Source: Candidatus Iainarchaeum sp. (GTDB lineage Archaea > Iainarchaeota > Iainarchaeia > Iainarchaeales > DTGL01). From it: DNA of 42,126 nt. Of the stretch, positions 10,271 to 28,255 are shown one piece after another. Position numbers and translations under genes: made by a program. The stretch lies in contig JAFCEU010000001.1 of the NCBI GenBank assembly GCA_017608995.1, forward strand, positions 1 to 42,126, in the 5' to 3' direction. The first letter of the stretch is position 1. The number at the start of each line of letters is the position of its first letter. The notes under the pieces were generated by a model. That model was given only the letters and a program-made list of their open reading frames with translations, ran no database searches and was not told the DNA's origin.

Positions 10271-10293
10271 AACCTATTTTATTAATTCGGAGA

Positions 10294-11109: not shown

Positions 11110-11120
11110 CTTTCTCCCTT

Positions 11121-12415: not shown

Positions 12416-12416
12416 T

Positions 12417-12566: not shown

Positions 12567-12598
12567 TTAAAAAGTATTATTTTCCAATTTAATAAAAT

Positions 12599-12985: not shown

Positions 12986-12991
12986 TTTAAA

Positions 12992-13237
12992 TCACTCTAT
13001 TTTGCTCCAGTTGATTGATTGAATTAAATCAACAACTTCTTCTTTAATCGCTTTGAGTTTGTTCAAGGCTTTTTGCTTTTCGTCTGGCGGAATAGGCAAG
13101 TCAACCATTTTCCGTGTTATAGGGTGTCTCACTGAAATGGATTCCCCAAGAGAGTCAATGCGCTTTACTTTGCTGATAAGGGTTCCTATTTGTGAAAACT
13201 TGGTTATTAAATCATTTAATTCATTTCTTTTAACCAT
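12992..13237 (-). CDS. hypothetical protein (81 aa)
   Basis: ORF in the operon with an SD-like AGGAGGGAG upstream. Confidence 0.65.
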   Translation of the reverse strand: MVKRNELNDLITKFSQIGTLISKVKRIDSLGESISVRHPITRKMVDLPIPPDEKQKALNKLKAIKEEVVDLIQSINWSKIE

Positions 13238-13268
13238 TTTTTCTCCCTCCTTTAATCAATACGTTCAC

Positions 13269-14171: not shown

Positions 14172-14172
14172 T

Positions 14173-14271
14173 TTAAAGGACCTCCTTTTCTTCGGCTTCA
14201 ATCTTTTCTTTAACCATTTCAACAAACTTCTTCTCATTTTTCTTAAATTTTTTAACCTTTTCAATTTTCAT
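14173..14271 (-). CDS. small Lys/Glu-rich protein (32 aa)
   Basis: GAGGGGAA SD before ATG 14271; stop 1 nt before ATG 14171. Competes with the TTG-initiated N-terminal extension in the ORF track. Confidence 0.4.
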   Translation of the reverse strand: MKIEKVKKFKKNEKKFVEMVKEKIEAEEKEVL

Positions 14272-16459: not shown

Positions 16460-18433
16460 TTAATACAGTGTGTTTACTCCTCCGCCACTGTCTTTATAAA
16501 CGAGTTTCGATTGAGTGGTTGAGTAGTAGATTGAATTATTAGGTGCTGCCGCATCTGTGGAGCTGATTGGCCTGAAATACCCGCTTCCGTCTATTACGGT
16601 TGAACCGCCGACGTCAATGTTTCCGTCGCTGTCAATTGAAACTTTAGTGTTCCAGCCAGAGTCGCGAATATTGAAACTTCTTGCCCCGGCTGAGTCTCCC
16701 AAAATAACATAGGCGCTCTTATTGGAAGCGCAGATTGTATAAACATTCCCGCCATACCCTATGAAGATGTCATTATTAGATGAAATTACTCCATACCCAG
16801 ATGCGTTTATATACATGCCAACATATTTGCCGCTTTGGTCGTCATACCCATTCACCTTAACCCCTACACTGTCCGCTCCCTGATTTAGTGTTATTCCTGT
16901 TGAGCCATCCCCTGTTGCTGTTATGCTTCCTGTTGATAATGTCCCTGTTGTGCTTAAATCTTCATCACCGAAATCTATGCTTCCTGTTGAATCTGTTATT
17001 GAACCGGTTCCTAAGGTCATTGTATTTACTGTTACAAAATTTATAGATGTCAGGTTGCTGAATATTGGAGTTCCACTGGTTGTTACATCCTGGTCAATAT
17101 AGGTATGTGATGTTCCATCAGAAGTTGAATGGGTTTCAGAAATTGTAATTGTATCAGTTGTAGCATCGCCAGTTACAGTAATTGCTCCTCCAACAGCTAA
17201 ATTTAATGTATCTGCAAAGCTCTCTGCTACAGGGTTAGTTCCAGCAGGGCAGGAAATGGTTTTAAAGATATAGACATCTGTTCCGCCTTGCTGTAATGTT
17301 CCTGCATTTATTGTCCCTGTTGTGCTTAAATCTTCATCACCGAAATCAATGCTTCCTGTTGAATCTGTTATTGAACCGGTTGCTAAGGTCATTGTATTTA
17401 CTGTTACCTGACTGAATGTTGGAGTTCCACTGGTTGTTACATCCTGGTCAATATAGGTATGTGATGTTCCATCAGAAGTTGAATGGGTTTCAGAAATTGT
17501 AATTGTATCAGTTGCCGCATCGCCAGTTACAGTAATTGCTCCTCCAACAGCTAAATTCAATGTATCTGCAAAGCTCTCTGCTACAGGGTTAGTTCCAGCA
17601 GGGCAGGAAATAGTTTTAAAGATATAGACATCTGTTCCGCCTTGCTGTAATGTTCCTGCATTTATTGTCCCTGTTGTGCTCAAATCTTCATCACCGAAAT
17701 CAATGCTTCCTGTTGAATCTGTTATTGAACTACCAGCAATAGTAAGTGTTCCTGCAGTAATAGATGTGTTTGCTTGTATTGTTCCGAACCCAGACAGATT
17801 ACTTCCACTCCAAGATGCAGTTCCGTCTGTTAAAGAAACTAGTCCTGTTCCAGCTCCTCCTGTAAAACTAATAGTCCCGTCTGTTAATGTTCCTGCATTT
17901 ATTGTCCCTGTTGTGCTTAAATCTTCATCACCGAAATCAATGCTTCCTGTTGAGCTTGTGAGTGAGTCAGTTGCAATGGTTATGTTTCCAAATGTTGCTG
18001 CTACCCCAGAAATACCCCATCCGCCCAAGTTTATGTCTTGATTGGCGTTTGAGCCATCAAGTTTTAGCCACTGTGTGTCGCCATATGAATCCACTCTTGC
18101 ATCAGTGTAATACAAATTAGTTGCGCCTTCAGGGATATCATCTGTATCAACTTGGCCTGGACCGCTTCCCCAATCTATATGGGTATCCTTAACGGCATCT
18201 ATCGCATCTGCTATCGCCCCAACTTGGGCAGCTGTTACATTATGAGGGTTTGACATGTCAGCAATGTGGTCCTGGGCTGTCTTCAAAGTGGTTGTTGTGT
18301 CCCAGCCGCTTCCCCCATACCTTGCGTCATGGTCGGAATTGGTGCCATCTAAATCAGGCATATCTGTTAAATCAGTATGGCTAATCTGCTCAAATGGCAA
18401 ACCCCGATGATGCCTAATTTTGGGCATATTCAT
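16460..18433 (-). CDS. fibre-like repeat protein (about 657 aa)
   Basis: N-terminal ...DHIADMSNPHNVTAAQVGA... motif, which is common in phage tail-fibre proteins. Gly/Thr/Ser-rich, with four STGSIDFGDEDLSTTGT motifs. Start is ambiguous (ATG 18436/18433/18427) and overlaps the upstream gene. Confidence 0.85.
   Translation of the reverse strand: MNMPKIRHHRGLPFEQISHTDLTDMPDLDGTNSDHDARYGGSGWDTTTTLKTAQDHIADMSNPHNVTAAQVGAIADAIDAVKDTHIDWGSGPGQVDTDDIPEGATNLYYTDARVDSYGDTQWLKLDGSNANQDINLGGWGISGVAATFGNITIATDSLTSSTGSIDFGDEDLSTTGTINAGTLTDGTISFTGGAGTGLVSLTDGTASWSGSNLSGFGTIQANTSITAGTLTIAGSSITDSTGSIDFGDEDLSTTGTINAGTLQQGGTDVYIFKTISCPAGTNPVAESFADTLNLAVGGAITVTGDAATDTITISETHSTSDGTSHTYIDQDVTTSGTPTFSQVTVNTMTLATGSITDSTGSIDFGDEDLSTTGTINAGTLQQGGTDVYIFKTISCPAGTNPVAESFADTLNLAVGGAITVTGDATTDTITISETHSTSDGTSHTYIDQDVTTSGTPIFSNLTSINFVTVNTMTLGTGSITDSTGSIDFGDEDLSTTGTLSTGSITATGDGSTGITLNQGADSVGVKVNGYDDQSGKYVGMYINASGYGVISSNNDIFIGYGGNVYTICASNKSAYVILGDSAGARSFNIRDSGWNTKVSIDSDGNIDVGGSTVIDGSGYFRPISSTDAAAPNNSIYYSTTQSKLVYKDSGGGVNTLY
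16941..17725. repeat. near-identical tandem duplication inside the fibre gene (periods 372 and 354 bp), with a further partial unit starting at 17904
   Basis: GTCCCTGTTGTGCTTAAATCTTCATCACCGAAATC... recurs at 16941, 17313, 17667 and 17904. Units 1 and 2 differ mainly by one short indel block. Confidence 0.9.
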
Positions 18434-18830
18434 CATATCTCCAAATCTCAACTTCAACAACAATGCCTGCGGTTTCACTCATTACATAAATCGCGTTAAT
18501 TTCACGGTTTGGCACTGTGTCTTCACTTAAAACATCTCCTGAAGAAAGCGTCATATAAGTTGAATGGGTTGGCTCAAAACAGTATTTCAGCTCATAGTTG
18601 CCACGAGCCTTCAACTGCCAGGTAACAATCTCGGGCTCTAATTTTATTTCATACCATTTCCCAGCCTCGTTCAAATAATGGTTAATGATGTGTGAGTAAA
18701 TTGGCCTTTTTTCTTCAGTTTTAACCTCTTTTACCTCTTTTACCTCCTTTGTTGGCTTAATGCCTTTTTTCAATTCTTCAGCCAAAAAAACCACTTGAGG
18801 CCAAGAAAAACTATTTTTCAACGATAGCAA
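18414..18830 (-). CDS. hypothetical protein; start codon uncertain
   Basis: No ATG near the 5' end (TTG at 18830 or GTG a few codons in). Contains (KEV)3; the C-terminal beta-rich part overlaps the fibre gene start. Confidence 0.55.
   Translation of the reverse strand: MLSLKNSFSWPQVVFLAEELKKGIKPTKEVKEVKEVKTEEKRPIYSHIINHYLNEAGKWYEIKLEPEIVTWQLKARGNYELKYCFEPTHSTYMTLSSGDVLSEDTVPNREINAIYVMSETAGIVVEVEIWRYDEYAQN
18724..18750. repeat. 9-bp tandem repeat x3 (mRNA sense AAAGAGGT-A/T)
   Basis: ACCTCTTTT ACCTCTTTT ACCTCCTTT on the + strand; encodes KEVKEVKEV and resembles three SD sequences. Confidence 0.85.
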
Positions 18831-18963
18831 CTATATCCCCTGCCTGATTTCTGACAAAAAAAGTGGCTTTGTCCTTCGTTGCCATAACATTGTAGGTAAG
18901 GAAAGCCAAGAATGAAAGGACCCCTATGCTTACAATCAATAAAACTGTATCTCCACTATCCAT
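18811..18963 (-). CDS. small membrane protein (50 aa)
   Basis: ATG 18963; VLLIVSIGVLSFLAFL hydrophobic segment. Verified by hand; weak SD. Confidence 0.45.
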   Translation of the reverse strand: MDSGDTVLLIVSIGVLSFLAFLTYNVMATKDKATFFVRNQAGDIVAIVEK

Positions 18964-18975
18964 AATAGCTATTAC

Positions 18976-20019
18976 TCAAACTGAATTAATAAGTTTTTTC
19001 CATTGGTCCCCGCATTTTTGAATGGAAAATTGTTCTTCAACGACTTTTCTTGGAGAGAACTCGTTTTCCAACACTTTTGCAACCGCTTCCCTGTATGGTT
19101 CATATTCCCAAAATTTAACTCTAATCCCAAGCCTTTTGTTCCAAAAGTCCCACCAAACACCAGTTTTTTGGGTAATAACCGGAATGTTGCATGCGGCTGC
19201 CTCCAAGCTGCTTAACCCAAAGCTTTCACAGCAGGTTGGCAAAACAAAAAAATCAGCTAAATTATATATTTCCGGCATTTGGCTTCTTGGGAGCATTTGA
19301 ATAATGCGTACATTCTTGCTTTTCGCTTTATTTGGAGCGGGCTCAGTAAAGCAAACCACCCAAAAAACGTCTTTGAATTCTTTTATAAGCCTTGTGAGAA
19401 TATGCCACCCCTTGGCCGGATGGAACTTTATTACACTCAAGCCCACTTTTTTATCTAACGGAATACCCCATTTGCGCCTTAAAATCTTTTTTTTGCCCAA
19501 GGGTCTGAATTTCTGCATACTAACCCCCTCATTTATGACTTTATGGCACTTGACATCAATTTTTTTCATATAGGCCTGCATGAATTTGCTTACAGCAACA
19601 TTGCAGGCTGACTTCTCACCTGTTTTTCTCTGTAAGTCAGTGCAAGCATTATAATGTTCCATGCTTTCCAAAAAATAGCCATAAAAATATAAAATCTTAG
19701 AAATGGTATCAAAAGGGTCCTGGAAAACCGTTACAATCGGTGTCTCCAAATCAAAGTAACCGCCAATCGCTGAATTTTTAACAATTACATCCAAAGGAAA
19801 AATTTTTTCATACTCTTTCAAGTAGTCCTCAATAATCCGAGACCTAAAAACAGCGTCAAAACCCTGCCTAATAAGGTTAACATTTAAAGCCTTTGCAGCT
19901 GAAGAAAAGGAAATCTGAGGAGCATTCAAAATTTCACTCAAATAAGAAAAAAAGGTTTCTTGGCCTCCGCTCCATTCATCTGACTTATTCCAGTTAACAA
20001 TTAAAGCCTTTTTCATCAA
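18976..20019 (-). CDS. glycosyltransferase, GT-B fold (group 1 / GT4-like)
   Basis: C-terminal ...LPTCCESFGLSSLEAAACNIPVI... matches the E-x7-E region of group-1 glycosyltransferases. Confidence 0.85.
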   Translation of the reverse strand: MMKKALIVNWNKSDEWSGGQETFFSYLSEILNAPQISFSSAAKALNVNLIRQGFDAVFRSRIIEDYLKEYEKIFPLDVIVKNSAIGGYFDLETPIVTVFQDPFDTISKILYFYGYFLESMEHYNACTDLQRKTGEKSACNVAVSKFMQAYMKKIDVKCHKVINEGVSMQKFRPLGKKKILRRKWGIPLDKKVGLSVIKFHPAKGWHILTRLIKEFKDVFWVVCFTEPAPNKAKSKNVRIIQMLPRSQMPEIYNLADFFVLPTCCESFGLSSLEAAACNIPVITQKTGVWWDFWNKRLGIRVKFWEYEPYREAVAKVLENEFSPRKVVEEQFSIQKCGDQWKKLINSV

Positions 20020-20756
20020 ATCACTTTCCTTCCAAGCAGTTTGTTGATTTTCTGGAAGATTCGCTGGTTGTTTTCACTAATCTTTTGTATCCTCTGCTGC
20101 TGCGTAACCATTCCAGAATGCATCCTGTATTTAAACAAGGGCAGCGGGACGTGCTTGAACTTAATCCTTTTAACCAGCATGCATCTAAGCAAATGCTCCA
20201 AGTCCTCTCCAAAACGCAGTGTTTCGTCAAAATTGTTTTCTTTAAACAGTTTAGTTGGCCCAAACAGGTTATAGCACACGCTCATGGTATTGTTTCTCGC
20301 TTGAACAACAGAGTTGATTACAAAGTCTTCATAGCTTTTAAACTCTGGTGCTCTGAATAAGCTTATTATCTCGCCGCCCACATTTATAACAAAATAGTCT
20401 GAGAAAAGAAAGCTTTTTCTGTCCGCATGTTTCAGCATTTCCTCCAAATAATTCGGCATAAACAAGTCATCTGCACTCAAAAAGCACAAATACTCTCCTC
20501 TGGCTTCTTTTACGCCTCTTGCCCGTGTTCCGCCAATGCCAAGGTTTTCCTCATTCCTTACATATCTGACATTCCGGCGGAACATTTGACCCCAGTTAAT
20601 GGCTTCAGGGCTTTTGTCAGTTGAGGCGTCATCAACCACGACAACTTCAAAGTCCTTAAAGGTCTGGTTGAAAACGCTTTCAATCGCCTGCCCAACAAAC
20701 ATTTCTGCATTATAGCAGGGGATTACCACACTAATCATTTTACCGCCTTTTTCCAT
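20016..20756 (-). CDS. glycosyltransferase family 2
   Basis: AAGGAG SD. ISVVIPCYNAEMFVGQAIESVFNQTFKDFEVVVVDDASTD plus LSADDL (DxD). Confidence 0.9.
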   Translation of the reverse strand: MEKGGKMISVVIPCYNAEMFVGQAIESVFNQTFKDFEVVVVDDASTDKSPEAINWGQMFRRNVRYVRNEENLGIGGTRARGVKEARGEYLCFLSADDLFMPNYLEEMLKHADRKSFLFSDYFVINVGGEIISLFRAPEFKSYEDFVINSVVQARNNTMSVCYNLFGPTKLFKENNFDETLRFGEDLEHLLRCMLVKRIKFKHVPLPLFKYRMHSGMVTQQQRIQKISENNQRIFQKINKLLGRKVI

Positions 20757-21187
20757 TTCTTAAACTCCTTTAAAGCCAAGGCAAAGGCTTCCGCTAATTC
20801 AACAAATTCCTTATGCGAAACATCCAGCCTATAAGATTTATAGTGTATGTGAATCATATTTTTTGGCATATGCGGCAGGTCTCCCTGCACCTCTATTTTA
20901 AAATCAGTCGGTCTTCTGCCATGAACTGGCGGTATTTTATGGAAAAACAGGTATTCTGGCAGCGATTTATTCGGCTCTGGGGCAGGGCAACCATTGTCCC
21001 TCCATTTCTCGTAAGCAGTAGTTACCGCTTCACAAAATTGGCAGAATTCTTCTTCGTCAAAAATCAGTCTCAGGTTACGCCAATGCAAATGAAAGTCCTC
21101 ACACCTCTCAACTGTATGCATGTCAGCATAAATATCTGAAACAGGGTCCACTTTACCATCAAACAACATTTTTTTCACGCTACCCAT
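20735..21187 (-). CDS. hypothetical protein (150 aa)
   Basis: ORF in the glycan island; His/Cys-containing; no family recognised. Confidence 0.65.
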   Translation of the reverse strand: MGSVKKMLFDGKVDPVSDIYADMHTVERCEDFHLHWRNLRLIFDEEEFCQFCEAVTTAYEKWRDNGCPAPEPNKSLPEYLFFHKIPPVHGRRPTDFKIEVQGDLPHMPKNMIHIHYKSYRLDVSHKEFVELAEAFALALKEFKKWKKAVK

Positions 21188-21638
21188 TCAAAGCCTCCTC
21201 AATTTTTTTTAATAGGTTTTCCTGCCTCTGCCCCATTGTTCCCTCAAACTCTGGCAAAACATCGTCCATGGTATTATTGCGCTTATGCTTCCCCAAATAC
21301 TGTTTCAAAACCCTATCAAAAGGAACAAACAAGTAAATGAAGGAAATCTTCCGACCTGTTTCCCTCCTGATAAACTCAATGGTGTTGTCCTCATCAAATT
21401 TATACCAAAAACGGTTCCACTTAAACCAGTTGTCCACAACAAAACCAGCGTCCCTTTCGTTGAGTTTTTTAATAAAAGCATTCAAAAACTGCTTTTTATT
21501 GTTCTTGCTTTTTTTGTGGTATTCTTCATCAAAATCAACATAACCATAGCCTTTTAAACAAGCGTATTCCTTGGCAAAAGTAGTTTTCCCGCTGCCCATC
21601 AAACCACATACGACAACCAACTCAGCCAATTTTACCAC
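21180..21638 (-). CDS. P-loop kinase-like protein (AAA_33 / zeta-toxin / PNK-like)
   Basis: VVVCGLMGSGKTTFAKEY Walker A near the N-terminus; about 150 aa; GTG start. Confidence 0.7.
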   Translation of the reverse strand: MVKLAELVVVCGLMGSGKTTFAKEYACLKGYGYVDFDEEYHKKSKNNKKQFLNAFIKKLNERDAGFVVDNWFKWNRFWYKFDEDNTIEFIRRETGRKISFIYLFVPFDRVLKQYLGKHKRNNTMDDVLPEFEGTMGQRQENLLKKIEEALNG

Positions 21639-21708
21639 CTTTTTGGAATTTCATTACTGCCTGTTCAAATCCTGTTCCCCAAAGGTTTTATCAGCAAAAT
21701 CTTTTTAG

Positions 21709-22230
21709 TCAAACCTTTTTCACCACGCAAAAAAATTCTTGTTTTTGCCAAGGAGCAACCTCCAGCTCCTGTATTTTTCCAAACTTTTTAACCAATTCTT
21801 CAAATTCCTGTGGAGAAAATTCTTTTAAGTGGTCTGGTGAATGAACCCAGTTTCTTTTGTCTGGAGTGACTATGATTAGCTTTCCTCCTTTTTTCAAAAC
21901 CCTGAACCATTCTTCCAAAGCCTTTTTTGCTTCAATGTGTTCAATTAGGTGGCTTGATATAACAAAATCAAAGCATTCGTCAGCAAAAGGCAGTTTTCTC
22001 GCATCCCACTGCAAATCCGCTTCTGATATAAAGCCCTTTGTTTTGTTGGTTATTCCCCCTTTTTGAATAATATCCACATTTAGGATTTCCCCGCTAACCC
22101 TGCTGTGCCCTCCGCCCAATTCAATTCCAAGACCCTTGCAGTGAGTTAAAATCCATTCCTTTCTTTTCAGTTTGAAGGGAAACTCCTCGTCTGATGGGCT
22201 TTTGTGCAGCTTAAACAAGCAACTCACCAT
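21709..22230 (-). CDS. class I SAM-dependent methyltransferase
   Basis: LGIELGGG (motif I), FDFVISSHLIEHI, VLKKGGKLIIVTP. Start taken at ATG 22230 (the track ORF extends to 22299 inside the upstream gene). Confidence 0.8.
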   Translation of the reverse strand: MVSCLFKLHKSPSDEEFPFKLKRKEWILTHCKGLGIELGGGHSRVSGEILNVDIIQKGGITNKTKGFISEADLQWDARKLPFADECFDFVISSHLIEHIEAKKALEEWFRVLKKGGKLIIVTPDKRNWVHSPDHLKEFSPQEFEELVKKFGKIQELEVAPWQKQEFFCVVKKV

Positions 22231-22948
22231 ATTCAATTGGCTTCGGTTTTTTGCATATCTTTGGTTCACAGCCTTCAGGAAACAGCTCATGGGAAACATG
22301 CTCTAAAACCAGCCCGCTTTCGTCCAAGCATTTTTTTCTGATTTCTACAGGCACGCCGTGAGCTGTCCGCTCTCTCCACCTGTCAACAATAAACCTATAG
22401 GTTGAATACCCGTAGTGAATCACAGTAAAAGGGGCAAGCCCCTGTTTGCCCAATCCTTGCGGAAACAAATCCAAATGCAGGCCCTTTCCAACAGCAAATT
22501 TTAGCCTTCCGTTGTTCCTCCACAGCCTCAAAAATTTACCTGACCCCAAATAATCTTTTCTGGCCCAGCAATCGCTCCTCCACAAAGTTATCTCTGGAAA
22601 CCAATAACCGTCAGCGCCGGAAGCAAACTCACAAAAATCTCTTAAACTGTTCGTTCCCTTTCTATCCAAAACCTCATCGCAGTCAAGCCAGAAGAACCAG
22701 TCAATATCAGGGCGTTTCTTCAAAGCAAACTCTAAAAGCTGCTGCTTGTGCGCTGTCTCATTCAAGAAATCGTTTTCCTTTCCTTCTAAAATCAAGCCGG
22801 TGTATTCTTTTGCGACTTCAACGCTGTTATCTGTGCTCCCATCATCATAAAAAGCGATTTCATCACAATAACGCTGCATATTATCAAGACAGCGTCTCAA
22901 GTTTCCCTTGGATTCCTCATTATAGCATTGGACAAAACCACAAATCAT
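22211..22948 (-). CDS. glycosyltransferase family 2-like
   Basis: FVQCYNEE...FYDDGSTDNS...WLDCDEV; ATG 22948 just after the radical SAM stop. Confidence 0.8.
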   Translation of the reverse strand: MICGFVQCYNEESKGNLRRCLDNMQRYCDEIAFYDDGSTDNSVEVAKEYTGLILEGKENDFLNETAHKQQLLEFALKKRPDIDWFFWLDCDEVLDRKGTNSLRDFCEFASGADGYWFPEITLWRSDCWARKDYLGSGKFLRLWRNNGRLKFAVGKGLHLDLFPQGLGKQGLAPFTVIHYGYSTYRFIVDRWRERTAHGVPVEIRKKCLDESGLVLEHVSHELFPEGCEPKICKKPKPIEYGELLV

Positions 22949-22952
22949 TTCA

Positions 22953-23924
22953 TCACACAAATTTCTGGTGCTTTATGTCTGAGATTAAAATATCCAACAG
23001 TTCATTGTAATGGGAATAATAACACTTATCGCATTTCGAGCCATCAAAACACCTTTGGTTTGCCCAGATTTCCTCTATTTCATCAACAGAGCCCATTTCA
23101 CCCTCATAATCACGCTTCGGGTTCTTGAACATATACTGCGATCCACAACAAGGGTAAAGCTTGCCGTTTGCTCCAACAACAGGTTTCAGCAAGCTTATTA
23201 AGCATTTTTTAGTGCCCTTAGTCCAAGTGCCTCTATCCTGATAAATTACTTTACTATCGTCAACACCAAGCTTTTTCAAAACAAACTTAACTGCCTCCAT
23301 TTTCCCTTCAAGCTTGTTAGCGATAAAAATATCATTAACAAGCCTAACATGTGTGAAATCGTATTCGTTGGCGTACTCAATCATTTTTTGAATCAAAGGC
23401 AAGTTGGGGTTTTCTCCAACAACATATGAAAACGCCCAATCAGTATTCCCTCTAAGCCAAGCCATCTTCAAAGGCCCTTCAATTTCCTCGAATTTTCGAT
23501 GGTCGCCTAAGGAAATTCTGCACCAGCGAAGCATATCTATGGTTTTTTTCGAAAGCCTATTGAGAAGAGTTCCGTTTGTTACTAAGCCCATCTCTATTCC
23601 CATTTCGTGAATTGCCCAAATTAAAGCATCTATGTGATTGTGCTTCAGAGGCTCGCCTCCGCCCGTGATGGTCACACTTTTACATCCAAGCTTCTTAAAT
23701 TTTTGCATTACATCAACAATTTTCTCAAAAGGCATTTCGATTTTTTTGTCCCTTGCACTGCAGGAACAGAAAGGACAGTTCAGGTTACAACGATTAGTTG
23801 GGTTCAATTGAACATGGATTGGCGGAATTTGTTTTCTCTCAGTCAAGTTCTTCATCAGTTCTTTGTTGAAAAACACTTTCACTGGGAATGCGCTGGCCGC
23901 AGTATAGGATTCTTTTTCATTCAT
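22953..23924 (-). CDS. radical SAM enzyme with Cys-rich C-terminal domain
   Basis: GGGAGG SD; ATGA overlap with the upstream GT. NPTNRCNLNCPFCS (CxxxCxxC), GGGEP, and C-terminal ...YPCCGSQ...CFDGSKCDKCYY. Confidence 0.9.
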   Translation of the reverse strand: MNEKESYTAASAFPVKVFFNKELMKNLTERKQIPPIHVQLNPTNRCNLNCPFCSCSARDKKIEMPFEKIVDVMQKFKKLGCKSVTITGGGEPLKHNHIDALIWAIHEMGIEMGLVTNGTLLNRLSKKTIDMLRWCRISLGDHRKFEEIEGPLKMAWLRGNTDWAFSYVVGENPNLPLIQKMIEYANEYDFTHVRLVNDIFIANKLEGKMEAVKFVLKKLGVDDSKVIYQDRGTWTKGTKKCLISLLKPVVGANGKLYPCCGSQYMFKNPKRDYEGEMGSVDEIEEIWANQRCFDGSKCDKCYYSHYNELLDILISDIKHQKFV

Positions 23925-25096
23925 ATTCCAAGCCTCCCATGCGCGTAATCTACAACCAAAGGCCTGTTTTCTATTCTTTTCATCAGCTCTGCCCAAGCGT
24001 CTATTGAACGTTTCCAAGAAAACTGTAATGCATACTTCCTGCCCTTTTCACCCATCTCCTTTCTCATTTCCAGAGAATTATACAATCTGCCCAGACATTC
24101 AGCGAACTCCAGTTCGTCAACTATCACCTTGTCCGCGATCAAGGGAGTAACCCATCTACAAGCCGGCTTTGCAAGCAATCCAGCACCAGACTCTTGCACC
24201 AACTCGGTCAAAGCAGTGCAGTCTGTCGCCACCACTGGAATGCCGCAAGACATTGCTTCCAAAACCGGAAGGCAAAAGCTTTCACCGCGTGAAGCGGTTA
24301 CGAAAACGTCAGCCATGTTATAGAGTTCAGCCATTTGCTTTTCATTGAATCCAGCATCTCTATTGAAGCCTTCAGTGTAAAAAACCTTGTCCGCTATTCC
24401 AAGCCTTTGAGCCATCAACTCTAAGTTTATTCCATCTGATGCAGTGGGATTACAGTGCAAATGCAAAATGGCATTAGCCTTTGAGTTAACCAGAAACAGT
24501 TTGAAGGCATATAACAGCTCGCTTATGCCTTTTTGAAAGCCCTTATTCGTTCCAACGTATAGGAAAACGAATTTTCCTTTATAGCCTGCTTTTTTCTTTA
24601 ATTCACTTTTCTTCTTCTCTGGAAAAGGCCTAAATGTATCCAAATTGACTCCGTGGGGTATTCTGACAACTTTTTTAAGACCATAGTCAAGTAACTGCTT
24701 TTCACTGAACTTTGAAGGCGCAACCAAGACATCTGCTTCCCTGTAAATTGTAGCGAGCTTAGGTGGCACTGGAACGGTATTTACTATTGTATGGCAAACC
24801 CAAGTTTTGTCCTTTATAATTGATTTTGGAATCCAAGAAAACTGGGGCATCCAGTTATCAACCAAAGTGATGATGCAGTCAATATCAAGCTTTTTGACAT
24901 AATAATCAAAAGCATCTTCACCATAAGGGCTGGCAATCAGAGGCAGCCTCCATTTTTCTCTTTGCAAGCCCCTGTTCTGCAAACCAAGCTCGTAAATATT
25001 AAACCCTTTAGCCCTAAGCCCAGTAACAACATTATAGGCAATTTTTCCAAAAGCAGAAGTTATGTTGCTTGAGGCTCCGAAAAAAAGAATGTTCAT
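23921..25096 (-). CDS. glycosyltransferase, GT-B fold (group 1 / GT4-like)
   Basis: ...VTASRGESFCLPVLEAMSCGIPVVATD... E-x7-E region; 391 aa. Confidence 0.9.
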   Translation of the reverse strand: MNILFFGASSNITSAFGKIAYNVVTGLRAKGFNIYELGLQNRGLQREKWRLPLIASPYGEDAFDYYVKKLDIDCIITLVDNWMPQFSWIPKSIIKDKTWVCHTIVNTVPVPPKLATIYREADVLVAPSKFSEKQLLDYGLKKVVRIPHGVNLDTFRPFPEKKKSELKKKAGYKGKFVFLYVGTNKGFQKGISELLYAFKLFLVNSKANAILHLHCNPTASDGINLELMAQRLGIADKVFYTEGFNRDAGFNEKQMAELYNMADVFVTASRGESFCLPVLEAMSCGIPVVATDCTALTELVQESGAGLLAKPACRWVTPLIADKVIVDELEFAECLGRLYNSLEMRKEMGEKGRKYALQFSWKRSIDAWAELMKRIENRPLVVDYAHGRLGI

Positions 25097-25155
25097 ATTA
25101 TTATAAAGAACAATCTCCTATAAATTTGTTTGGTAATAATTGAGAAAAAAGAACT

Positions 25156-25482
25156 TTAAAGTTTTTCTTCAATTGCCTGGACTACTTTTTTCCTGTTCCT
25201 TCCCGCTTCCTCGGCTTCAAGCAAAAGCTTTAAGTCTTCTTCAGAAGATACGGCTTCCAAAGCTTTTACAACGGTTTTAGCGTTCTGGTCCAAAAAGTTT
25301 TCAACATCTTTGGCATCCAAAGTCGTATCAGTTGTTTTCTCTTCCCCTAAACTCACAACACTGTGTGAGCCAACATCATAGAAAACATTTACAGCTCCGC
25401 TGGCTGAATGCTTTTTAACCATGCCCTCAACCTCATCAACAGTGGCATGGGAAGGGACCTTTTCCAAAACAGTTTTCTTCAA
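25156..25482 (-). CDS. hypothetical acidic protein (108 aa, TTG start)
   Basis: AAGGTGAT SD 5 nt before the TTG. Confidence 0.55.
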   Translation of the reverse strand: MKKTVLEKVPSHATVDEVEGMVKKHSASGAVNVFYDVGSHSVVSLGEEKTTDTTLDAKDVENFLDQNAKTVVKALEAVSSEEDLKLLLEAEEAGRNRKKVVQAIEEKL

Positions 25483-25496
25483 ATCAAATCACCTTT

Positions 25497-25943
25497 TTAG
25501 AACAGGTTTGGCTCCAGATTCTCTGGAGTCGGCTCCCGCTTACAAGTTAAATATGCCTGGTAGTCAATTGTCCCGCCAGAGTTATTATAGACATTGATAG
25601 AAACACTACTGCTTTCACTAACTTTTGTTATTGGAGCATCAGGCCTCATCTCAATTTTTTGATTATAATTATAAGTGTCAGTTCTTAAACTATGCTGTGT
25701 GCTAGTTCCAACAACAATTGCAAATTCAACATCAGCAGAGCTTGCTTCTACAACAAATAAATAAGGGTAAAGAACTACATTGGCATCGGTTGTAACCGTG
25801 TCTATTATTGTATCCCCTGTTGAAGTAAGTGTTCCACAAGTGCCAACTACAACTATATCACTTGTCTTGGTTTCCCTCAGCCATTTGCCGTTTTGAGGGT
25901 CATATTTCTCATACCTGAGGTACTTAGTTATGTCTCCCGTCAT
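25497..25943 (-). CDS. hypothetical beta-rich virion-block protein (148 aa)
   Basis: ATGA-type overlap with the upstream gene. Confidence 0.7.
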   Translation of the reverse strand: MTGDITKYLRYEKYDPQNGKWLRETKTSDIVVVGTCGTLTSTGDTIIDTVTTDANVVLYPYLFVVEASSADVEFAIVVGTSTQHSLRTDTYNYNQKIEMRPDAPITKVSESSSVSINVYNNSGGTIDYQAYLTCKREPTPENLEPNLF

Positions 25944-26446
25944 CTTATTCCCACCACCGTAATAGGAGTATAAATCTGGGGCTTTTCAGTCAATTCAACC
26001 AAAGCGTAACGCCACCCCACCCAATAAAGCACAGGTGCAATTGCAACATTGGTATTATTAACAATCTGAACATTTGGGGGATAATCTTTGAGAACCCACA
26101 AATTCAAAAACTCTGGAACGTGCCTTGGACTCATATTGTCAGAAAGAGGACCTCCTTCTGGGCTTCTCTGCGTGCCCCACCTGTTTGTTGCGGCAGGCTG
26201 CTTCAAATAAACCTTAACGTTTCCAGAGATTTCAATTCCGTAGATTTGGTAAAGCTGACCGGTTGGAGGATTCAATGAAGTAATCTCAGTATAGCTCTCT
26301 GTTGCACCAGCAGCCAATTCGTCATGCTCATCCTTATAAAAAAGTGTATCACGGTTAACGATTTTGTAAAACTTTTCCGCTCCCGCGATTACAACTCTAA
26401 CATTGTCTAGAATATTAAGCCCTTTTGTCAAGTCTCGTTCAGCCAT
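25940..26446 (-). CDS. hypothetical beta-rich virion-block protein (168 aa)
   Basis: ORF in the operon. Confidence 0.7.
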   Translation of the reverse strand: MAERDLTKGLNILDNVRVVIAGAEKFYKIVNRDTLFYKDEHDELAAGATESYTEITSLNPPTGQLYQIYGIEISGNVKVYLKQPAATNRWGTQRSPEGGPLSDNMSPRHVPEFLNLWVLKDYPPNVQIVNNTNVAIAPVLYWVGWRYALVELTEKPQIYTPITVVGIR

Positions 26447-26487
26447 AAATAAAAAAACACCCCCTGTGTGTGTGTTAGCGGGGAATT

Positions 26488-26994
26488 TTACGGATTCAGA
26501 ACCATGCCTCTCTTCTCTACGACCAATCCAATGAAAATCAAGTTCTCTGTTGAATTGGTTGTAGTCGTGTCGTTATAGCCTTCAATTGTTATCGTTGTAT
26601 TCTGGTCAACTGTAATTGGGTCATCTACCCACATTGTGTTGTCCTCTTGCGCTGGAACATGCTCTATTGGCCAAATCCTTGCAACCGAGCCACTTCGGGT
26701 AATCTTCACCCAGTCAATCAAAGGTGTTGACTCAGGGTAACAAATTCCATTGATTGAAATGAATCTGTTGTCTGAAATTGTTTGAGCGTTGACCAGCGTG
26801 TTTGACCCGCTTGTGGTTGTAACACTGAAGTTAAAGCTGTTCAGGCTTGAATCGAGGTCCTCTGCCCTCAAAGGTCGCACAATCAGGTCTTGCCTTGAAA
26901 GACCAAGCTGTGCAGTCGCCTTGGCTAACAACTTGTCCTCTGTTTTTCCAAATGCGTCAAGGGCTCTGCCCCTAAGCTCTTGGTAGAAAGTCAT
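26488..26994 (-). CDS. hypothetical beta-rich protein (168 aa); paralog of 36230..36796
   Basis: Shares ...LG-x-x-R-x-x-L-x-VR-x-L...SGSNT-L/I-VN...I-x-D-x-RFI-x-I-x-GI-x-Y... and C-terminal G-x-VVEK-R/K-GMVL with the other copy. Confidence 0.7.
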   Translation of the reverse strand: MTFYQELRGRALDAFGKTEDKLLAKATAQLGLSRQDLIVRPLRAEDLDSSLNSFNFSVTTTSGSNTLVNAQTISDNRFISINGICYPESTPLIDWVKITRSGSVARIWPIEHVPAQEDNTMWVDDPITVDQNTTITIEGYNDTTTTNSTENLIFIGLVVEKRGMVLNP

Positions 26995-27066: not shown

Positions 27067-27951
27067 TTAGTCCACAAAGACGTCTTTACTGTATGTTCCG
27101 CCGTTTATTGCGAATGCTTGTGGAGCCAACTGCCTTTGGAAATATCTTCCAGAAGTTTCCCCCACTGAAACCGGTGCAATTGTTGCTGTTGGTACTGTTG
27201 CTGCTGCTGCTGTTGGCACCATTGTCTCTTCTGCAACGTCAACTACCTTGGTTAGCATGTGGGTTCCGGCCACGATTGCTGCAAGCTGGGCTGTCGGATT
27301 GCTTTTTAATCCAACCAAGCCGCCCAGTGTGGCAGCTAAGCCTCCGCCAATGTTAATCCAAGTAGAAGCTCGTGCAAAAGCTGGTGCACCTGTTTGACCT
27401 AACTGGACATCCACTTGGTCTGCTAGTACCTCAACAAGCTTTCCGGCAAACTGGGAACCTGCAACGACCCCCACGTCTTTTGCCAAAACCATCTCTTTCG
27501 TCACCTCTCTTTCTTGACCAACTTTTTTTTCAGTAAAAGTATTATTACTTCCAGATTTAAAAACCTTTCTAACTCCTGCATCAAGTTTCTCACAAGCAAT
27601 GCAGTTTTCGGTGTTAAAAGCTGGAACGGCTTTCTCAATAATTTTCCTGATTTCCCTGACCTTCAAAATCGCTCCATCAGGAGAATAACTTGGTAAATTC
27701 TTTCTTAACTCATATAGTTTTTCTTTGACTTTCCTGTATAAAGAGGTTTTCTCTGGCTTTACTGTCGCGCTGTGGCTTATTGCCTCAGATGCTTCTCCTT
27801 CGGCTTCAGCTAAATGCTTTGCGAGGCATGAAACCTGGCTTTCATCGGTTTGTAAATCATCTAAATTCCTTAAATGTGTCTCCAGTTGAAGCAGGTTAAT
27901 GAAAATGTTGTCATTATTATAATCCAGAAAACGCTCTTCTCGGTTATCCAT
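27067..27951 (-). CDS. hypothetical protein (294 aa) with Gly/Ala-rich hydrophobic C-terminal third
   Basis: ATG 27951 overlaps the upstream stop by 8 nt. Confidence 0.65.
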   Translation of the reverse strand: MDNREERFLDYNNDNIFINLLQLETHLRNLDDLQTDESQVSCLAKHLAEAEGEASEAISHSATVKPEKTSLYRKVKEKLYELRKNLPSYSPDGAILKVREIRKIIEKAVPAFNTENCIACEKLDAGVRKVFKSGSNNTFTEKKVGQEREVTKEMVLAKDVGVVAGSQFAGKLVEVLADQVDVQLGQTGAPAFARASTWINIGGGLAATLGGLVGLKSNPTAQLAAIVAGTHMLTKVVDVAEETMVPTAAAATVPTATIAPVSVGETSGRYFQRQLAPQAFAINGGTYSKDVFVD

Positions 27952-28255
27952 TTCCAGCACCAAACAAAAGCTCCTTCATTTCCTTTATTTGTTTTCTCAG
28001 CCAAGCCCTGGCTTCTTTGCTCTCATCAAAAACACTGTATAAGTCAGGCCTGTTGGTTTCAAGCCAAAGCATAACGTTTTTTATATTAAATTCATCTTTT
28101 TGGTTTGAATACATGAAGGCAACGACCTTGCCAATCCGAGCGATGTCCCGCTTATGCTCCAAAAGAAGACCAGCTACTGAAACATCTTCAGCGATAGCTA
28201 ACTGCAAATGGTTTTTCTTCCAGCCATTCAGTAAAGCAAGGATTATAGCATGCAT
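27944..28255 (-). CDS. hypothetical protein (103 aa)
   Basis: ORF in the operon. Confidence 0.65.
   Translation of the reverse strand: MHAIILALLNGWKKNHLQLAIAEDVSVAGLLLEHKRDIARIGKVVAFMYSNQKDEFNIKNVMLWLETNRPDLYSVFDESKEARAWLRKQIKEMKELLFGAGNG

What the first reader, a model, noticed from the sequence alone, without database searches (positions are those of the whole stretch)
18976..25096. Six-kb glycan-biosynthesis island inserted in the middle of the virion operon
Eight co-directional, mostly overlapping genes encode two GT-B (GT4-like) and two GT2 glycosyltransferases, a radical SAM enzyme, a class I SAM methyltransferase, a P-loop kinase-like protein and one unknown. They split the structural block between the fibre genes and the beta-rich putative capsid genes. 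About 15% of the genome is devoted to building a presumably methylated or otherwise modified oligosaccharide. Targets could be virion proteins (glycan shield or receptor mimicry) or the host S-layer or lipids (superinfection exclusion or serotype conversion). A four-GT pathway with radical SAM chemistry on a 42-kb virus is unusual.
Basis: partly seen in the sequence, partly recalled or inferred. Interest (0 to 1): 0.7.

Follow-up and report, generated by a model that had tools for sequence, protein, structure and literature searches.

The report
Variable glycan locus in archaeal virus
A 42-kb circular virus-like genome from sediment archaea carries an eight-gene sugar-building cluster between its putative coat and fibre genes; relatives keep it in the same place but swap its inner genes, much as bacteria vary their surface-antigen loci.

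Summary
Eight co-directional, tightly packed minus-strand genes (18976-25096) encode two GT4 and two GT2 glycosyltransferases, a radical SAM enzyme with an auxiliary-cluster cysteine motif, a class I methyltransferase, a weak P-loop kinase-like protein and a conserved unknown.

The word "inserted" is not supported. Composition matches the rest of the genome and there are no flanking repeats. A glycosyltransferase cluster lies downstream of the same beta-sandwich genes in all seven related metagenomic contigs that reach that far, and directly upstream of the fibre-type genes in the three that extend to them. Several of these contigs are 41-44 kb, and all bins that carry the marker gene are archaeal.

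The locus has a conserved frame, GT4-rSAM at one end and GT2-GT4 at the other. Its interior is exchangeable and grows beyond 12.6 kb in one relative, which adds an NDP-sugar dehydratase/epimerase, a B12-rSAM and five methyltransferase-domain genes.

No enzyme has a transmembrane segment, and there is no flippase, polymerase, oligosaccharyltransferase or lipid-carrier transferase. My best reading is cytoplasmic assembly of a decorated glycan on virion proteins. The target is inferred, not shown.

No terminase, portal, HK97 or double-jelly-roll protein was detected, so "virion operon" remains presumptive. I rate it a new variant of a known kind (virus-encoded glycosylation), in an apparently undescribed virus lineage.

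The parts
23921..25096 (-). GT4 (GT-B) glycosyltransferase, 391 aa. It is the first gene of the locus and the 5' frame gene, translationally coupled to the rSAM gene.
   Evidence: Pfam Glycos_transf_1 8.5e-23 and Glyco_trans_1_4 8.8e-23. Full-length match to phage GT family phrog_2170, 1.2e-37. EX7E motif ESFCLPVLE. Orthologue identity: 83-85% in L002/L004, 40% in L005, 31-34% in L006/L012/L014.
22953..23924 (-). Radical SAM enzyme, 323 aa, with a C-terminal auxiliary-cluster motif. It is the second frame gene.
   Evidence: Pfam Radical_SAM 4e-17 and weak SPASM. A 61-sequence alignment has invariant C46/C50/C53 plus C241, C259, C260, C298 and C301. AF2 pLDDT 93.6. Nearest folds are SuiB, DesII, BlsE, SkfB, MoaA and viperin at TM about 0.55-0.64, none specific. 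971 homologues were found, almost none named.
22211..22948 (-). GT2-like (GT-A) glycosyltransferase, 245 aa, part of exchangeable cassette B.
   Evidence: Pfam Glycos_transf_2 3.9e-08 (33.8 bits against a 23.3 cut-off) and Glyco_tranf_2_4 1.4e-07. DxD motif DCDE. Identity is 65% in L005 and 60% in L012, higher than the backbone proteins. Absent from L002.
21709..22230 (-). Class I SAM-dependent methyltransferase, 173 aa, in the cassette interior.
   Evidence: Pfam Methyltransf_11 4.8e-14 and Methyltransf_25 1.1e-08. Glycine-rich motif I is GIELGGG. Poorly conserved between relatives.
21180..21629 (-). P-loop NMP/sugar-acid-kinase-like protein, 149 aa, part of cassette B.
   Evidence: Walker A GLMGSGKT. 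Weak AAA_18, AAA_33 and SKI hits confined mostly to the P-loop. Orthologues at 37-40% identity in L005 and L012 carry AAA_18/AAA_33/SKI hits on record.
20735..21187 (-). Conserved unknown, 150 aa, part of cassette B. It is an internal duplication with two HxH motifs and is probably a metal-binding protein.
   Evidence: Only a sub-threshold DUF6686 hit. 32 homologues at 54-73% identity. Alignment A5 has invariant H33, H35, H89, H113, H115, H125, C29, E27, E30 and D122. No PDB relative. It is the most conserved island protein: 64% in L005 and 70% in L012.
20016..20756 (-). GT2 (GT-A) glycosyltransferase, 246 aa, a 3' frame gene.
   Evidence: Pfam Glycos_transf_2 1.3e-33. Orthologue identity: 73% in L002, 40% in L005, 49% in L006, L012 and L014.
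18976..20016 (-). GT4 (GT-B) glycosyltransferase, 346 aa, the last gene of the locus and a 3' frame gene.
   Evidence: Pfam Glycos_transf_1 8.1e-15. EX7E motif ESFGLSSLE. Orthologue identity: 71% in L002, 45% in L005, 39% in L012.
25097..25155 (-). Intergenic region upstream of the locus. It has an oligo-T run after the g108 stop and a TTTATA box 23-28 nt upstream of the GT4 ATG. This is a putative archaeal terminator plus promoter for a leaderless transcript.
   Evidence: Read directly from the sequence and from the upstream-region listing. Its function is inferred.
25497..26994 (-). Three conserved small beta-rich proteins directly upstream of the locus: 168 aa (26488-26994), 168 aa (25940-26446) and 148 aa (25497-25943). 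They are candidate virion proteins and candidate glycosylation targets.
   Evidence: They are the most conserved backbone proteins of the block (84-88% in L002/L004, about 55% in L005). AF2 of the 25940-26446 protein gives an all-beta sandwich, pLDDT 76.6. Foldseek matches to SJR capsids, polyhedrin and cement/turret proteins are weak, with TM about 0.4. Sequon N130-x-T is present in 39 of 52 family members and N130 is invariant. The three proteins are not detectably related to each other.
16460..18433 (-). Repeat-rich Ser/Thr-rich fibre-like protein, 657 aa, downstream of the locus. It is a candidate O-glycosylation target.
   Evidence: 27% Ser+Thr and 8 sequons, which is not enriched given its composition. 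A 354-nt tandem duplication at 98% identity lies inside the gene. Fibre-type genes occupy the same position in L002, L005 and L012.

Best explanation
The eight genes form a resident glycan-assembly locus within the presumed morphogenetic block. The genome is a complete, about 42-kb, circular or terminally redundant virus-like element of sediment archaea.

The four soluble glycosyltransferases would build a short oligosaccharide stepwise in the host cytoplasm from host nucleotide sugars. The radical SAM enzyme is always coupled to the first GT4. It is predicted to remodel a sugar or nucleotide sugar by radical chemistry. The methyltransferase, the kinase-like protein and the HxH protein would decorate the glycan.

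The most likely acceptors are the virus's own surface proteins, encoded immediately on either side: the small beta-sandwich proteins and the Ser/Thr-rich fibre.

The locus has a fixed frame (GT4-rSAM ... GT2-GT4) and an interior that is swapped, moved or expanded between relatives. Related viruses therefore display different glycans, as bacterial O-antigen loci do.

Shown: gene content, the soluble nature of the enzymes, conserved position, variable interior, and nucleotide-sugar genes in a relative.
Inferred: the acceptor, the glycan, the rSAM chemistry and the timing of expression.
For: Enzyme families:
- The domain calls are confirmed.

Operon structure:
- The genes are tightly packed, overlapping and co-directional with the flanking conserved beta-sandwich, fibre and beta-helix genes.

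Conserved position. A GT cluster lies downstream of the same beta-sandwich genes in all seven related contigs that reach that far:
- L002, L004 and L005.
- L006.
- L009, where it sits 7 kb downstream as a GT4-GT2 fusion.
- L012.
- L014.
- The cluster ends directly upstream of the g138-type and fibre-type genes in the three contigs that extend that far: L002, L005 and L012.

Variable interior:
- The frame genes persist while the interior varies.
- L002 replaces cassette B with a second rSAM, three methyltransferases and a PAPS-reductase-family gene.
- L012 places cassette B ahead of the frame.
- L014 exceeds 12.6 kb. It adds an NDP-sugar epimerase/GDP-mannose-dehydratase-family gene, a B12-binding rSAM and five methyltransferase-domain genes. 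This anchors the chemistry to nucleotide sugars.

Soluble enzymes:
- No island protein has a hydrophobic 19-mer above 1.5 on the Kyte-Doolittle scale.
- None matches a flippase, polymerase, oligosaccharyltransferase or polyprenyl-phosphate transferase.
- This fits direct cytoplasmic glycosylation.

GT4-rSAM coupling:
- The two genes share a 4-nt ATGA overlap.
- They are adjacent in six relatives: L002, L004, L006, L012, L014 and L011. In L005 two small ORFs lie between them.
- phrog_21308, a 735-position phage family, is matched by the GT4 at profile positions 199-373 and by the rSAM at 415-502, as expected of a GT4-rSAM fusion.

rSAM fold:
- Its neighbours include the nucleotide-sugar enzymes DesII and BlsE.

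Not a recent insertion:
- GC and GC3 equal the genome's, and there are no flanking repeats.
Against: - No glycan or glycoprotein has been observed. The acceptor is inferred only from gene position.
- The flanking genes are not proven virion genes. Fold matches are weak, and no terminase, portal, HK97 or DJR protein was found.
- Sequon enrichment in the neighbours is modest. g128 has 6 and g168a has 4, while the fibre is not enriched for its composition.
- Classical N-glycosylation would need an exported acceptor, and these proteins lack signal peptides.
- Rosetta-stone and fold evidence does not separate sugar-modifying from peptide-modifying rSAM enzymes. SuiB and SkfB score as well as DesII.
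- A GT4-rSAM-GT2 triad also sits among cellular genes of a Bathyarchaeota MAG. The same chemistry therefore serves cells, possibly on their own surface.
Confidence: 0.5

Rival explanations
1. Host-surface remodelling. The soluble GTs, rSAM and methyltransferase act on the host's lipid-linked glycan precursors at the cytoplasmic face. This alters the S-layer or lipid glycans of the infected or lysogenised cell. The result would be superinfection exclusion, or altered adhesion and aggregation.
For: The genome encodes a tyrosine integrase (1410-2300), so a carrier state is plausible. The GT2 shows N-terminal similarity to GtrB-like O-antigen-conversion PHROGs (1e-11 to 4.5e-12), and to AglG, AglJ and teichuronic-acid GTs below their cut-offs. 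A GT4-rSAM-GT2 triad sits in a cellular Bathyarchaeota context. Papers on archaeal viruses raise this option for single GTs and methyltransferases (PMC13452462).
Against: The locus is about 17 kb from the integrase. It is embedded in, and co-directional with, the conserved beta-sandwich, fibre and beta-helix block in every relative, rather than next to the attachment or lysogeny region as in Gtr-type modules. There is no GtrA/GtrC, flippase or membrane-anchored GT. The two readings are not exclusive, because a modified lipid-linked glycan could end up on both host and exported virion proteins.
Confidence: 0.22
2. The element is not a virus. It would be a plasmid or integrative element whose "structural" block encodes cell-surface appendages or adhesins, and the locus glycosylates these.
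For: No viral hallmark was detected in the window. There are no relatives among deposited phage and archaeal-virus genomes. The beta-sandwich model also resembles Ena pilus subunits. The block contains LamG and NosD/pectinesterase-like beta-helix proteins, which are also typical of cell-surface proteins.
Against: Five independent assemblies are close in size: 41,041, 41,801, 42,167, 43,052 and 44,415 bp. A 40-nt terminal direct repeat indicates a discrete small replicon. Its gene order is stable, with one arm of replication and recombination genes and one arm of small conserved proteins, fibres and beta-helix spikes, as in many archaeal viruses. Tail-spike and tail-collar PHROG hits fall on the beta-helix protein.
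Confidence: 0.12
3. The locus makes a glycosylated small molecule or peptide (RiPP- or glycocin-like), or hypermodifies viral DNA with sugars, rather than glycosylating proteins.
For: rSAM enzymes with SPASM or twitch motifs are often peptide maturases. SuiB and SkfB are among the best fold matches. There is a weak SunS-family hit for the GT2-like protein (4.2e-05). The combination of P-loop kinase, rSAM and PAPS-reductase-family genes recalls phage DNA hypermodification pathways (own knowledge).
Against: No conserved precursor-peptide gene is present. Small ORFs around the rSAM differ between relatives. No hydroxymethylase, DNA transglycosylase or T4-type DNA glucosyltransferase was found in the ORFs scanned. 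The SunS hit covers only the generic GT-A N-terminus. A relative adds an NDP-sugar dehydratase/epimerase and many methyltransferases, which is typical of glycan loci.
Confidence: 0.08

Closest known systems
Virus-encoded virion glycosylation: chlorovirus PBCV-1 capsid glycans, capsid and tail glycosylation in cluster F/O mycobacteriophages, and single GTs next to capsid genes in archaeal rod-shaped and spindle viruses
   Same: Soluble virus-encoded GT-A and GT-B enzymes, sometimes with a sugar methyltransferase, are encoded close to structural genes. They are thought to act in the cytoplasm without the host lipid-carrier route. Papers at hand note this for archaeal viruses and for a mycobacteriophage (PMC11256854). 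The PBCV-1 and Che8/Corndog details come from my own knowledge.
   Different: Here four GTs are joined to a radical SAM enzyme in a fixed frame. The interior is exchangeable and takes 15% to about 30% of a roughly 42-kb genome. No sequence relative of the rSAM or of the flanking proteins exists in deposited phage or archaeal-virus genomes. Glycosylation of the particle is untested.
Bacterial O-antigen and capsule gene clusters
   Same: The architecture matches: conserved end genes, a hypervariable centre of GTs, methyltransferases and sugar-modifying enzymes, and cassette exchange between lineages.
   Different: There is no Wzx/Wzy/Wzz, ABC transporter, initiating phosphoglycosyl transferase or ligase. 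All proteins are soluble. The locus sits on a virus-like replicon between putative virion genes.
Serotype-converting phage modules (GtrABC type)
   Same: A mobile element carries a GT2 with GtrB-like N-terminal similarity and an integrase.
   Different: There is no GtrA flippase and no GtrC. The GT2 has no membrane anchor. The locus is not adjacent to the integrase or attachment region, and it contains eight genes rather than three.
Archaeal Agl N-glycosylation pathway
   Same: It uses GT2 and GT4 enzymes plus a SAM methyltransferase (an AglP-like role). GT2_246 gives sub-threshold hits to AglG (1.4e-13) and AglJ (5e-04).
   Different: All hits are far below the family cut-offs. There is no AglB, flippase or dolichyl-phosphate-charging enzyme.
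Sugar-acting radical SAM enzymes DesII and BlsE, and twitch/SPASM enzymes BtrN and SpeY
   Same: They share the CX3CX2C core and a partial TIM barrel. DesII reaches TMq 0.64 and BlsE 0.61. The C-terminal cysteines suit an auxiliary cluster.
   Different: Sequence matches are confined to the rSAM core. Peptide maturases and viperin score similarly. No curated family threshold is reached.

Membership tests
GT4 / GT-B glycosyltransferases (Pfam Glycos_transf_1) | Profile match above the gathering score, and an EX7E motif in the C-terminal Rossmann domain | tested here: met
   81.2 and 55.2 bits against a 26.4 cut-off. ESFCLPVLE and ESFGLSSLE were read from the translations.
GT2 / GT-A glycosyltransferases (Pfam Glycos_transf_2) | Profile match above the gathering score, and a DxD-type metal/NDP-sugar motif | tested here: met
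   116.7 and 33.8 bits against a 23.3 cut-off. The motifs are VDDAS/SADD and DCDE. The 245-aa protein matches only the N-terminal half of the profile.
Radical SAM superfamily | CX3CX2C cluster motif and the Radical_SAM profile | tested here: met
   63.3 bits against a 29.5 cut-off. C46/C50/C53 are invariant in 61 sequences.
Named rSAM families (MoaA, viperin/pVip, PqqE/SPASM peptide maturases, QueE, DesII, BlsE) | Whole-protein score above the curated family cut-off, or a specific full-length structural match | tested here: not met
   The best NCBIfam hit is archaeal MoaA at 57 bits against a 325 cut-off. PDB sequence hits cover only residues about 35-180. Foldseek TM is at most 0.64, spread over many families. 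PADLOC pVip hits cover only residues 42-139.
Class I SAM-dependent methyltransferases | Methyltransf_11/25 profile and glycine-rich motif I | tested here: met
   53.2 bits against a 21.2 cut-off. Motif I is GIELGGG. The substrate class could not be determined.
P-loop small-molecule kinases (shikimate/gluconate kinase, AAA_33) | Walker A motif plus lid and substrate-binding regions matched over the full length | tested here: inconclusive
   Only the first 40-70 residues match. AAA_18 scores 25.5 bits against a 29.4 cut-off, and SKI scores 24.1 against 22.1. Orthologues in L005 and L012 have AAA_18/AAA_33 hits on record.
Gtr-type serotype-conversion module | GtrA flippase, membrane-anchored GtrB and GtrC, located next to the integrase/att region | tested here: not met
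   No island protein has a transmembrane segment. There are no GtrA or GtrC matches. The integrase lies about 17 kb away.
Wzx/Wzy- or ABC-dependent O-antigen/capsule locus, or the archaeal Agl pathway | Initiating polyprenyl-phosphate transferase, a flippase or transporter, and a polymerase, ligase or oligosaccharyltransferase | tested here: not met
   None was found among the eight proteins, among the other window ORFs scanned, or in the Pfam hits on record for 13921-35096.
Virus-encoded virion glycosylation system | Virus-encoded GTs, and a glycan demonstrated on virion proteins | not testable with these tools
   GTs are present and conserved next to putative virion genes. Glycan presence needs particles or recombinant expression.
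Known viral realms (Duplodnaviria, Varidnaviria, Adnaviria, spindle-shaped viruses) | HK97 MCP with terminase and portal, or DJR/SJR MCP with an FtsK-type ATPase, or SIRV2-fold MCP, or a short hydrophobic two-helix MCP | tested here: inconclusive
   No Pfam or PHROG hallmark was found. The 168-aa protein is a beta-sandwich with weak SJR-like matches. The 297-aa protein ends in a hydrophobic two-helix hairpin. Only one of the candidates was modelled.

The most novel reading that the evidence does not exclude
The window belongs to an undescribed lineage of about 42-kb circular archaeal viruses, binned with Heimdallarchaeaceae, Archaeoglobaceae and Pacearchaeota MAGs. The lineage has no recognisable capsid or packaging hallmarks. 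It devotes 15-30% of its genome to a hypervariable, O-antigen-like "viral serotype locus". The locus would be framed by a new sugar-acting radical SAM family coupled to a GT4, and would glycosylate the virion in the cytoplasm. Cassettes would be exchanged between viruses and with host cells.
Probability: 0.35. Interest if true: 0.8.

Novelty: new variant of a known kind. Interest (0 to 1): 0.62.

Why it matters
Virus-encoded glycosylation is known, but mostly as one or two transferases. Here a whole lineage of small archaeal virus-like genomes keeps a multi-enzyme glycan locus with a fixed frame and a rapidly exchanged interior.

This is the genomic signature of a surface structure under diversifying selection. 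If the glycan decorates the particle, these elements carry their own serotype locus. That would bear on host recognition, evasion of host defences and virion stability in sediment archaea. Those archaea may include Asgard and Bathyarchaeia lineages, whose virus biology is almost unknown.

The result also flags two conserved, unnamed enzyme families as candidates for new sugar chemistry: the GT4-coupled rSAM with 971 homologues, and the HxH-repeat 150-aa protein.

Tried and rejected
Searches that found no relatives:
- Nucleotide search of 18001-26000 against deposited phages found nothing. One search failed on query length.
- Two scans of the viral-contig collection, with the rSAM and the 446-aa protein, gave no confirmed relative.
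- Exact look-ups with wrong rSAM starts failed. The correct start was then taken from the JGI gene call.
- tblastn against deposited phages found no relative of the 168-aa protein. Only 20-26% identity hits appeared for the rSAM and the GT4.

Searches that gave no function:
- PHROG and Pfam gave no function for the flanking "structural" proteins.
- PDB sequence searches with the 632-aa and 363-aa proteins and with the unk150 profile found nothing.
- Foldseek of the 168-aa model against PDB and BFVD gave only generic beta-sandwich matches, so the capsid call stays open.
- hhalign and BLASTP found no relationship among the three small beta-rich proteins.
- There are no tRNA genes and no Rfam families that could point to an attachment site or host.
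- The sigma-70 promoter and intrinsic-terminator scans were at shuffle level.
- The PADLOC hits (viperin, mad2) cover only generic cores, so a defence-system reading was rejected.

Literature:
- I compared the element with the Asgard virus Fenrir, which also has BshA-like and WbdA-like GTs and a methyltransferase. I rejected it as the same lineage because Fenrir has PolB, terminase and portal genes.
- Searches for the JGI sample identifiers found nothing.

Host:
- Host assignment was left open. The 168-aa marker gene occurs in bins from three archaeal groups (Archaeoglobaceae, Pacearchaeota, Heimdallarchaeaceae) and one unclassified archaeon. Relatives range from 31% to 52% GC.

Full report
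**1. What is in the sequence**

The window is a complete unit genome. Its first 40 nt are repeated at 42087-42126. It matches JGI metagenome contig Ga0366835_1001243, which is 42,167 bp.

The minus strand between 18976 and 25096 carries eight genes. The JGI gene calls refine four starts:

| Gene | Coordinates | Length |
|---|---|---|
| GT4 | 23921-25096 | 391 aa |
| rSAM | 22953-23924 | 323 aa |
| GT2-like | 22211-22948 | 245 aa |
| Methyltransferase | 21709-22230 | 173 aa |
| P-loop protein | 21180-21629 | 149 aa |
| Unknown | 20735-21187 | 150 aa |
| GT2 | 20016-20756 | 246 aa |
| GT4 | 18976-20016 | 346 aa |

- Five junctions are overlaps of 1-22 nt. The largest gap is 79 nt.
- Pfam supports the two Glycos_transf_1 calls, the two Glycos_transf_2 calls, Radical_SAM and Methyltransf_11, all above their gathering scores.
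- The kinase call rests on a Walker A motif and weak N-terminal matches.
- The 150-aa protein has no family.
- NCBIfam gives many hits, all far below the cut-offs, so no equivalog can be assigned.

The locus takes 14.5% of the genome.

**2. It is not an insertion**

- GC (0.38-0.43) and GC3 of the eight genes fall inside the range of the rest of the genome.
- The only notable repeat is a 38-nt trace of paralogy between the 5' ends of the two GT2 genes. Nothing flanks the locus.
- The same arrangement recurs in independent assemblies.

I used the rSAM, the 168-aa protein and the 150-aa protein as handles and read the following relatives:

| Locus | Source | Contig size |
|---|---|---|
| L002 | ENA | 59.7 kb |
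| L004 | JGI | 29 kb |
| L005 | JGI | 43,052 bp |
| L006 | Archaeoglobaceae-binned | 16.7 kb |
| L009 | ENA | 74.5 kb |
| L012 | Heimdallarchaeaceae-binned | 44,415 bp |
| L014 | JGI | 41,801 bp |

The common gene order has four parts:
- A coiled-coil protein of about 420-456 aa in L002, L004, L005 and L006. This protein is not seen in L009, L012 or L014.
- A protein of about 100 aa, then one of about 270-300 aa.
- Two or more proteins of about 168 aa and one of about 148 aa, followed by the GT cluster.
- A protein of about 140 aa, a fibre-type gene and beta-helix proteins. These are seen in the contigs that reach beyond the cluster (L002, L005, L012).

In L009 the cluster is reduced to a GT4-GT2 fusion plus a methyltransferase, and it lies 7 kb downstream of the 168-aa genes.

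This order holds while the flanking 168-aa protein falls to 44-55% identity. It also holds across a GC range of 31% to 52%.

**3. Anatomy of the locus**

- The frame is conserved. GT4 followed by rSAM sits at the 5' end, and GT2 followed by GT4 sits at the 3' end.
- The interior is exchangeable.
- In the window and in L005 the interior is cassette B: GT2-like, methyltransferase, kinase-like and the 150-aa protein.
- In L012 cassette B sits in front of the frame. The rSAM there matches the window's only over the core, at 34% identity.
- In L002 cassette B is replaced by a second rSAM, three methyltransferases, a PAPS-reductase-family protein and two unknowns.
- In L014 the locus exceeds 12.6 kb, about 30% of the contig. 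It adds an NDP-sugar epimerase/GDP-mannose-dehydratase-family gene, a B12-binding rSAM, five methyltransferase-domain genes and a faint GH130/GH43-like protein.
- The cassette B proteins GT2-like and unk150 are 60-70% identical between genomes whose backbone proteins are only 48-55% identical. This points to strong constraint or to cassette exchange.
- All eight proteins lack a hydrophobic segment.
- No flippase, polymerase, oligosaccharyltransferase or polyprenyl-phosphate transferase is present, either here or in the ORFs scanned elsewhere in the window.

**4. The radical SAM enzyme**

- It has 971 homologues, with a broad plateau near 50% identity, and almost none is named.
- A 61-sequence alignment shows the invariant CX3CX2C motif plus five further conserved cysteines: C241, C259, C260, C298 and C301. 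These suit an auxiliary iron-sulfur cluster.
- The AlphaFold model is confident, with pLDDT 93.6.
- Its nearest solved folds are spread over several families: SuiB, DesII, BlsE, SkfB, MoaA and viperin, at TM 0.55-0.64.
- Sequence and profile matches to PDB entries cover only the core.
- Its coupling to the GT4 is the most telling feature. The two genes share a 4-nt overlap in the window.
- They are adjacent in L002, L004, L006, L012 and L014. In L005 two small ORFs separate them.
- One PHROG family of 735 positions is matched by the GT4 in its first half and by the rSAM in its second half, as expected of a fusion protein.
- A GT4-rSAM-GT2 triad also lies among plainly cellular genes in a Bathyarchaeota MAG contig, L011. 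Those genes include archaeosine TGT, PAC2, Lsm, archease, rubrerythrin and NAPRTase.
- The core chemistry is therefore shared with archaeal cells.

**5. What kind of element this is**

- One arm carries a tyrosine integrase, Ku, an ATP-dependent DNA ligase and a weak, sub-threshold match to the clamp N-terminal domain.
- The other arm carries the conserved small proteins, the fibre, a NosD/pectinesterase-type beta-helix protein with tail-spike PHROG hits, a LamG-domain protein and a metallophosphoesterase.
- No terminase, portal, HK97 or DJR protein was detected.
- The 168-aa protein (25940-26446) models as a beta-sandwich with pLDDT 76.6. Its matches to single-jelly-roll capsids, polyhedrin and cement/turret proteins are only weak.
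- Its family counts 178 representative clusters in 1.84 billion proteins. It has no relative in deposited phage or archaeal-virus genomes.
- The 297-aa protein has a conserved His/Cys N-terminal domain and a C-terminal hairpin of two hydrophobic helices.
- The 446-aa protein is mostly coiled coil.
- The recurrent contig sizes of 41-44 kb and the terminal repeat argue for a discrete small replicon. I treat it as a virus-like element whose virion type is unresolved.

Evidence for an archaeal host is indirect:
- The genome-collection scan found the 168-aa marker only in archaeal MAGs: Archaeoglobaceae, Pacearchaeota and one unclassified archaeon. A Heimdallarchaeaceae-binned contig, L012, also carries it.
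- The cellular GT4-rSAM-GT2 counterpart is in a Bathyarchaeota MAG.
- Homologues occur in the LCGC14 marine-sediment metagenome.
- There is a DUF7249 hit, and a Methanothermobacter-plasmid-type domain occurs in a relative.
- A TTTATA box lies 23-28 nt upstream of the first gene, after an oligo-T run.

The disagreement among bins means the host is not assigned.

**6. Mechanism**

The best-supported reading is stepwise cytoplasmic assembly of a short, decorated oligosaccharide by four soluble transferases. The rSAM, methyltransferase, kinase-like protein and HxH protein would modify it. It would most probably be built on the element's own surface proteins.

Grounds for this reading:
- The locus is embedded in, and co-oriented with, the conserved block in every relative.
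- It lacks everything needed for a lipid-carrier and export route.
- Its interior varies as surface-antigen loci do.
- Relatives add nucleotide-sugar enzymes.

Candidate acceptors:
- The Ser/Thr-rich fibre, with 27% Ser+Thr.
- The small beta-rich proteins. A sequon at an invariant Asn (N130-x-T) is kept in 39 of 52 members of the 168-aa family.
- g128 and g168a, which have more sequons than their composition predicts.

None of this proves glycosylation.

Rivals:
- The main rival is remodelling of host surface glycans. It is compatible with the integrase and with the cellular counterpart of the frame. The locus's position far from the integrase counts against it.
- Peptide or small-molecule products and DNA modification have little support.

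**7. Comparison with the literature at hand**

- Papers on Asgard, Bathyarchaeia, ANME-1 and Nitrososphaeria viruses report single glycosyltransferases or sugar methyltransferases. They suggest virion or host-surface glycosylation.
- A recent study of alkane-oxidising enrichments notes viral contigs that combine NosD-like proteins, lectin domains and glycosyltransferases.
- None of the papers I read or searched describes a framed GT4-rSAM ... GT2-GT4 locus with an exchangeable interior, or the lineage defined by the 168-aa proteins.
- That search covered a limited library, so prior description elsewhere cannot be excluded.

**8. Verdict**

- The finding is real and the enzyme calls are right.
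- The "island inserted" reading should be replaced by [quoted passage not shown].
- It is a new variant of a known kind.
- The target and the virion nature of the neighbours remain inferences.

Noticed in passing
window 1-40 and 42087-42126: An exact 40-nt direct terminal repeat indicates a complete circular or terminally redundant genome of 42,086 bp.
   Followed up: yes
window 41389-42086 compared with L013: The window and JGI contig Ga0366835_1001243 are identical from 39002 to 41389. They then diverge, and the contig is 41 nt longer. This is a variable stretch near the genome end, possibly repeat-containing.
   Followed up: partly
window 17058-17730: A 354-nt tandem duplication (1.9 copies, 98% identical) lies inside the fibre gene, duplicating a 118-aa module. 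It suggests recent change in fibre length.
   Followed up: partly
window 1410-2300, 5183-6983, 8552-9382: The element encodes a tyrosine integrase, a Ku homologue and an ATP-dependent DNA ligase (a two-gene end-joining set), plus a weak clamp-like protein. A Ku-ligase pair on a small archaeal virus-like genome is itself unusual.
   Followed up: no
window 27067-27960: This 297-aa protein is conserved in relatives. It has invariant H29, C45, H49, C120 and C123 in a helical N-terminal domain, and a C-terminal hairpin of two hydrophobic helices (STWINIGGGLAATLGGLVGL-KSNP-TAQLAAIVAGTHMLTKVVDVA). The hairpin recalls the hydrophobic capsid proteins of spindle-shaped archaeal viruses.
   Followed up: partly
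window 20735-21187: The 150-aa unknown is an internal duplication, (F/I)H(L/I)H...R(L)...EF...A occurring twice, with six invariant histidines. It is the most conserved protein of the locus (54-73% identity across 32 homologues). There is no solved relative.
   Followed up: partly
window 18811-18963: A 50-aa ORF encoding a single hydrophobic helix lies directly after the last GT4. Similar-sized ORFs occupy this position in L002 (51 aa) and L012 (86 aa).
   Followed up: no
window 9596-14264: This stretch holds a LamG/concanavalin-like protein (9596-10270), a calcineurin-like phosphoesterase (10294-11238) and a NosD/pectinesterase-type beta-helix protein (13269-14264) with tail-spike PHROG hits. 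Together they form a carbohydrate-binding or carbohydrate-degrading set downstream of the fibre.
   Followed up: partly
L014 4351-16987: A relative of 41.8 kb and 52% GC carries a version of the locus longer than 12.6 kb. It includes a GDP-mannose-dehydratase/epimerase-family gene, a PAPS-reductase-family gene, a B12-binding rSAM and five methyltransferase-domain genes.
   Followed up: partly
L011 279-3247: A GT4-rSAM-GT2 triad (rSAM 50% identical to the window's) lies next to housekeeping genes in a Bathyarchaeota MAG contig. It is a cellular counterpart of the viral frame.
   Followed up: partly
L008 and L009: The family of the 26488-26994 protein is multiplied in some relatives, with three tblastn matches in L008 and four in L009, arranged around a single copy of the 25940-26446 type.
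   Followed up: no
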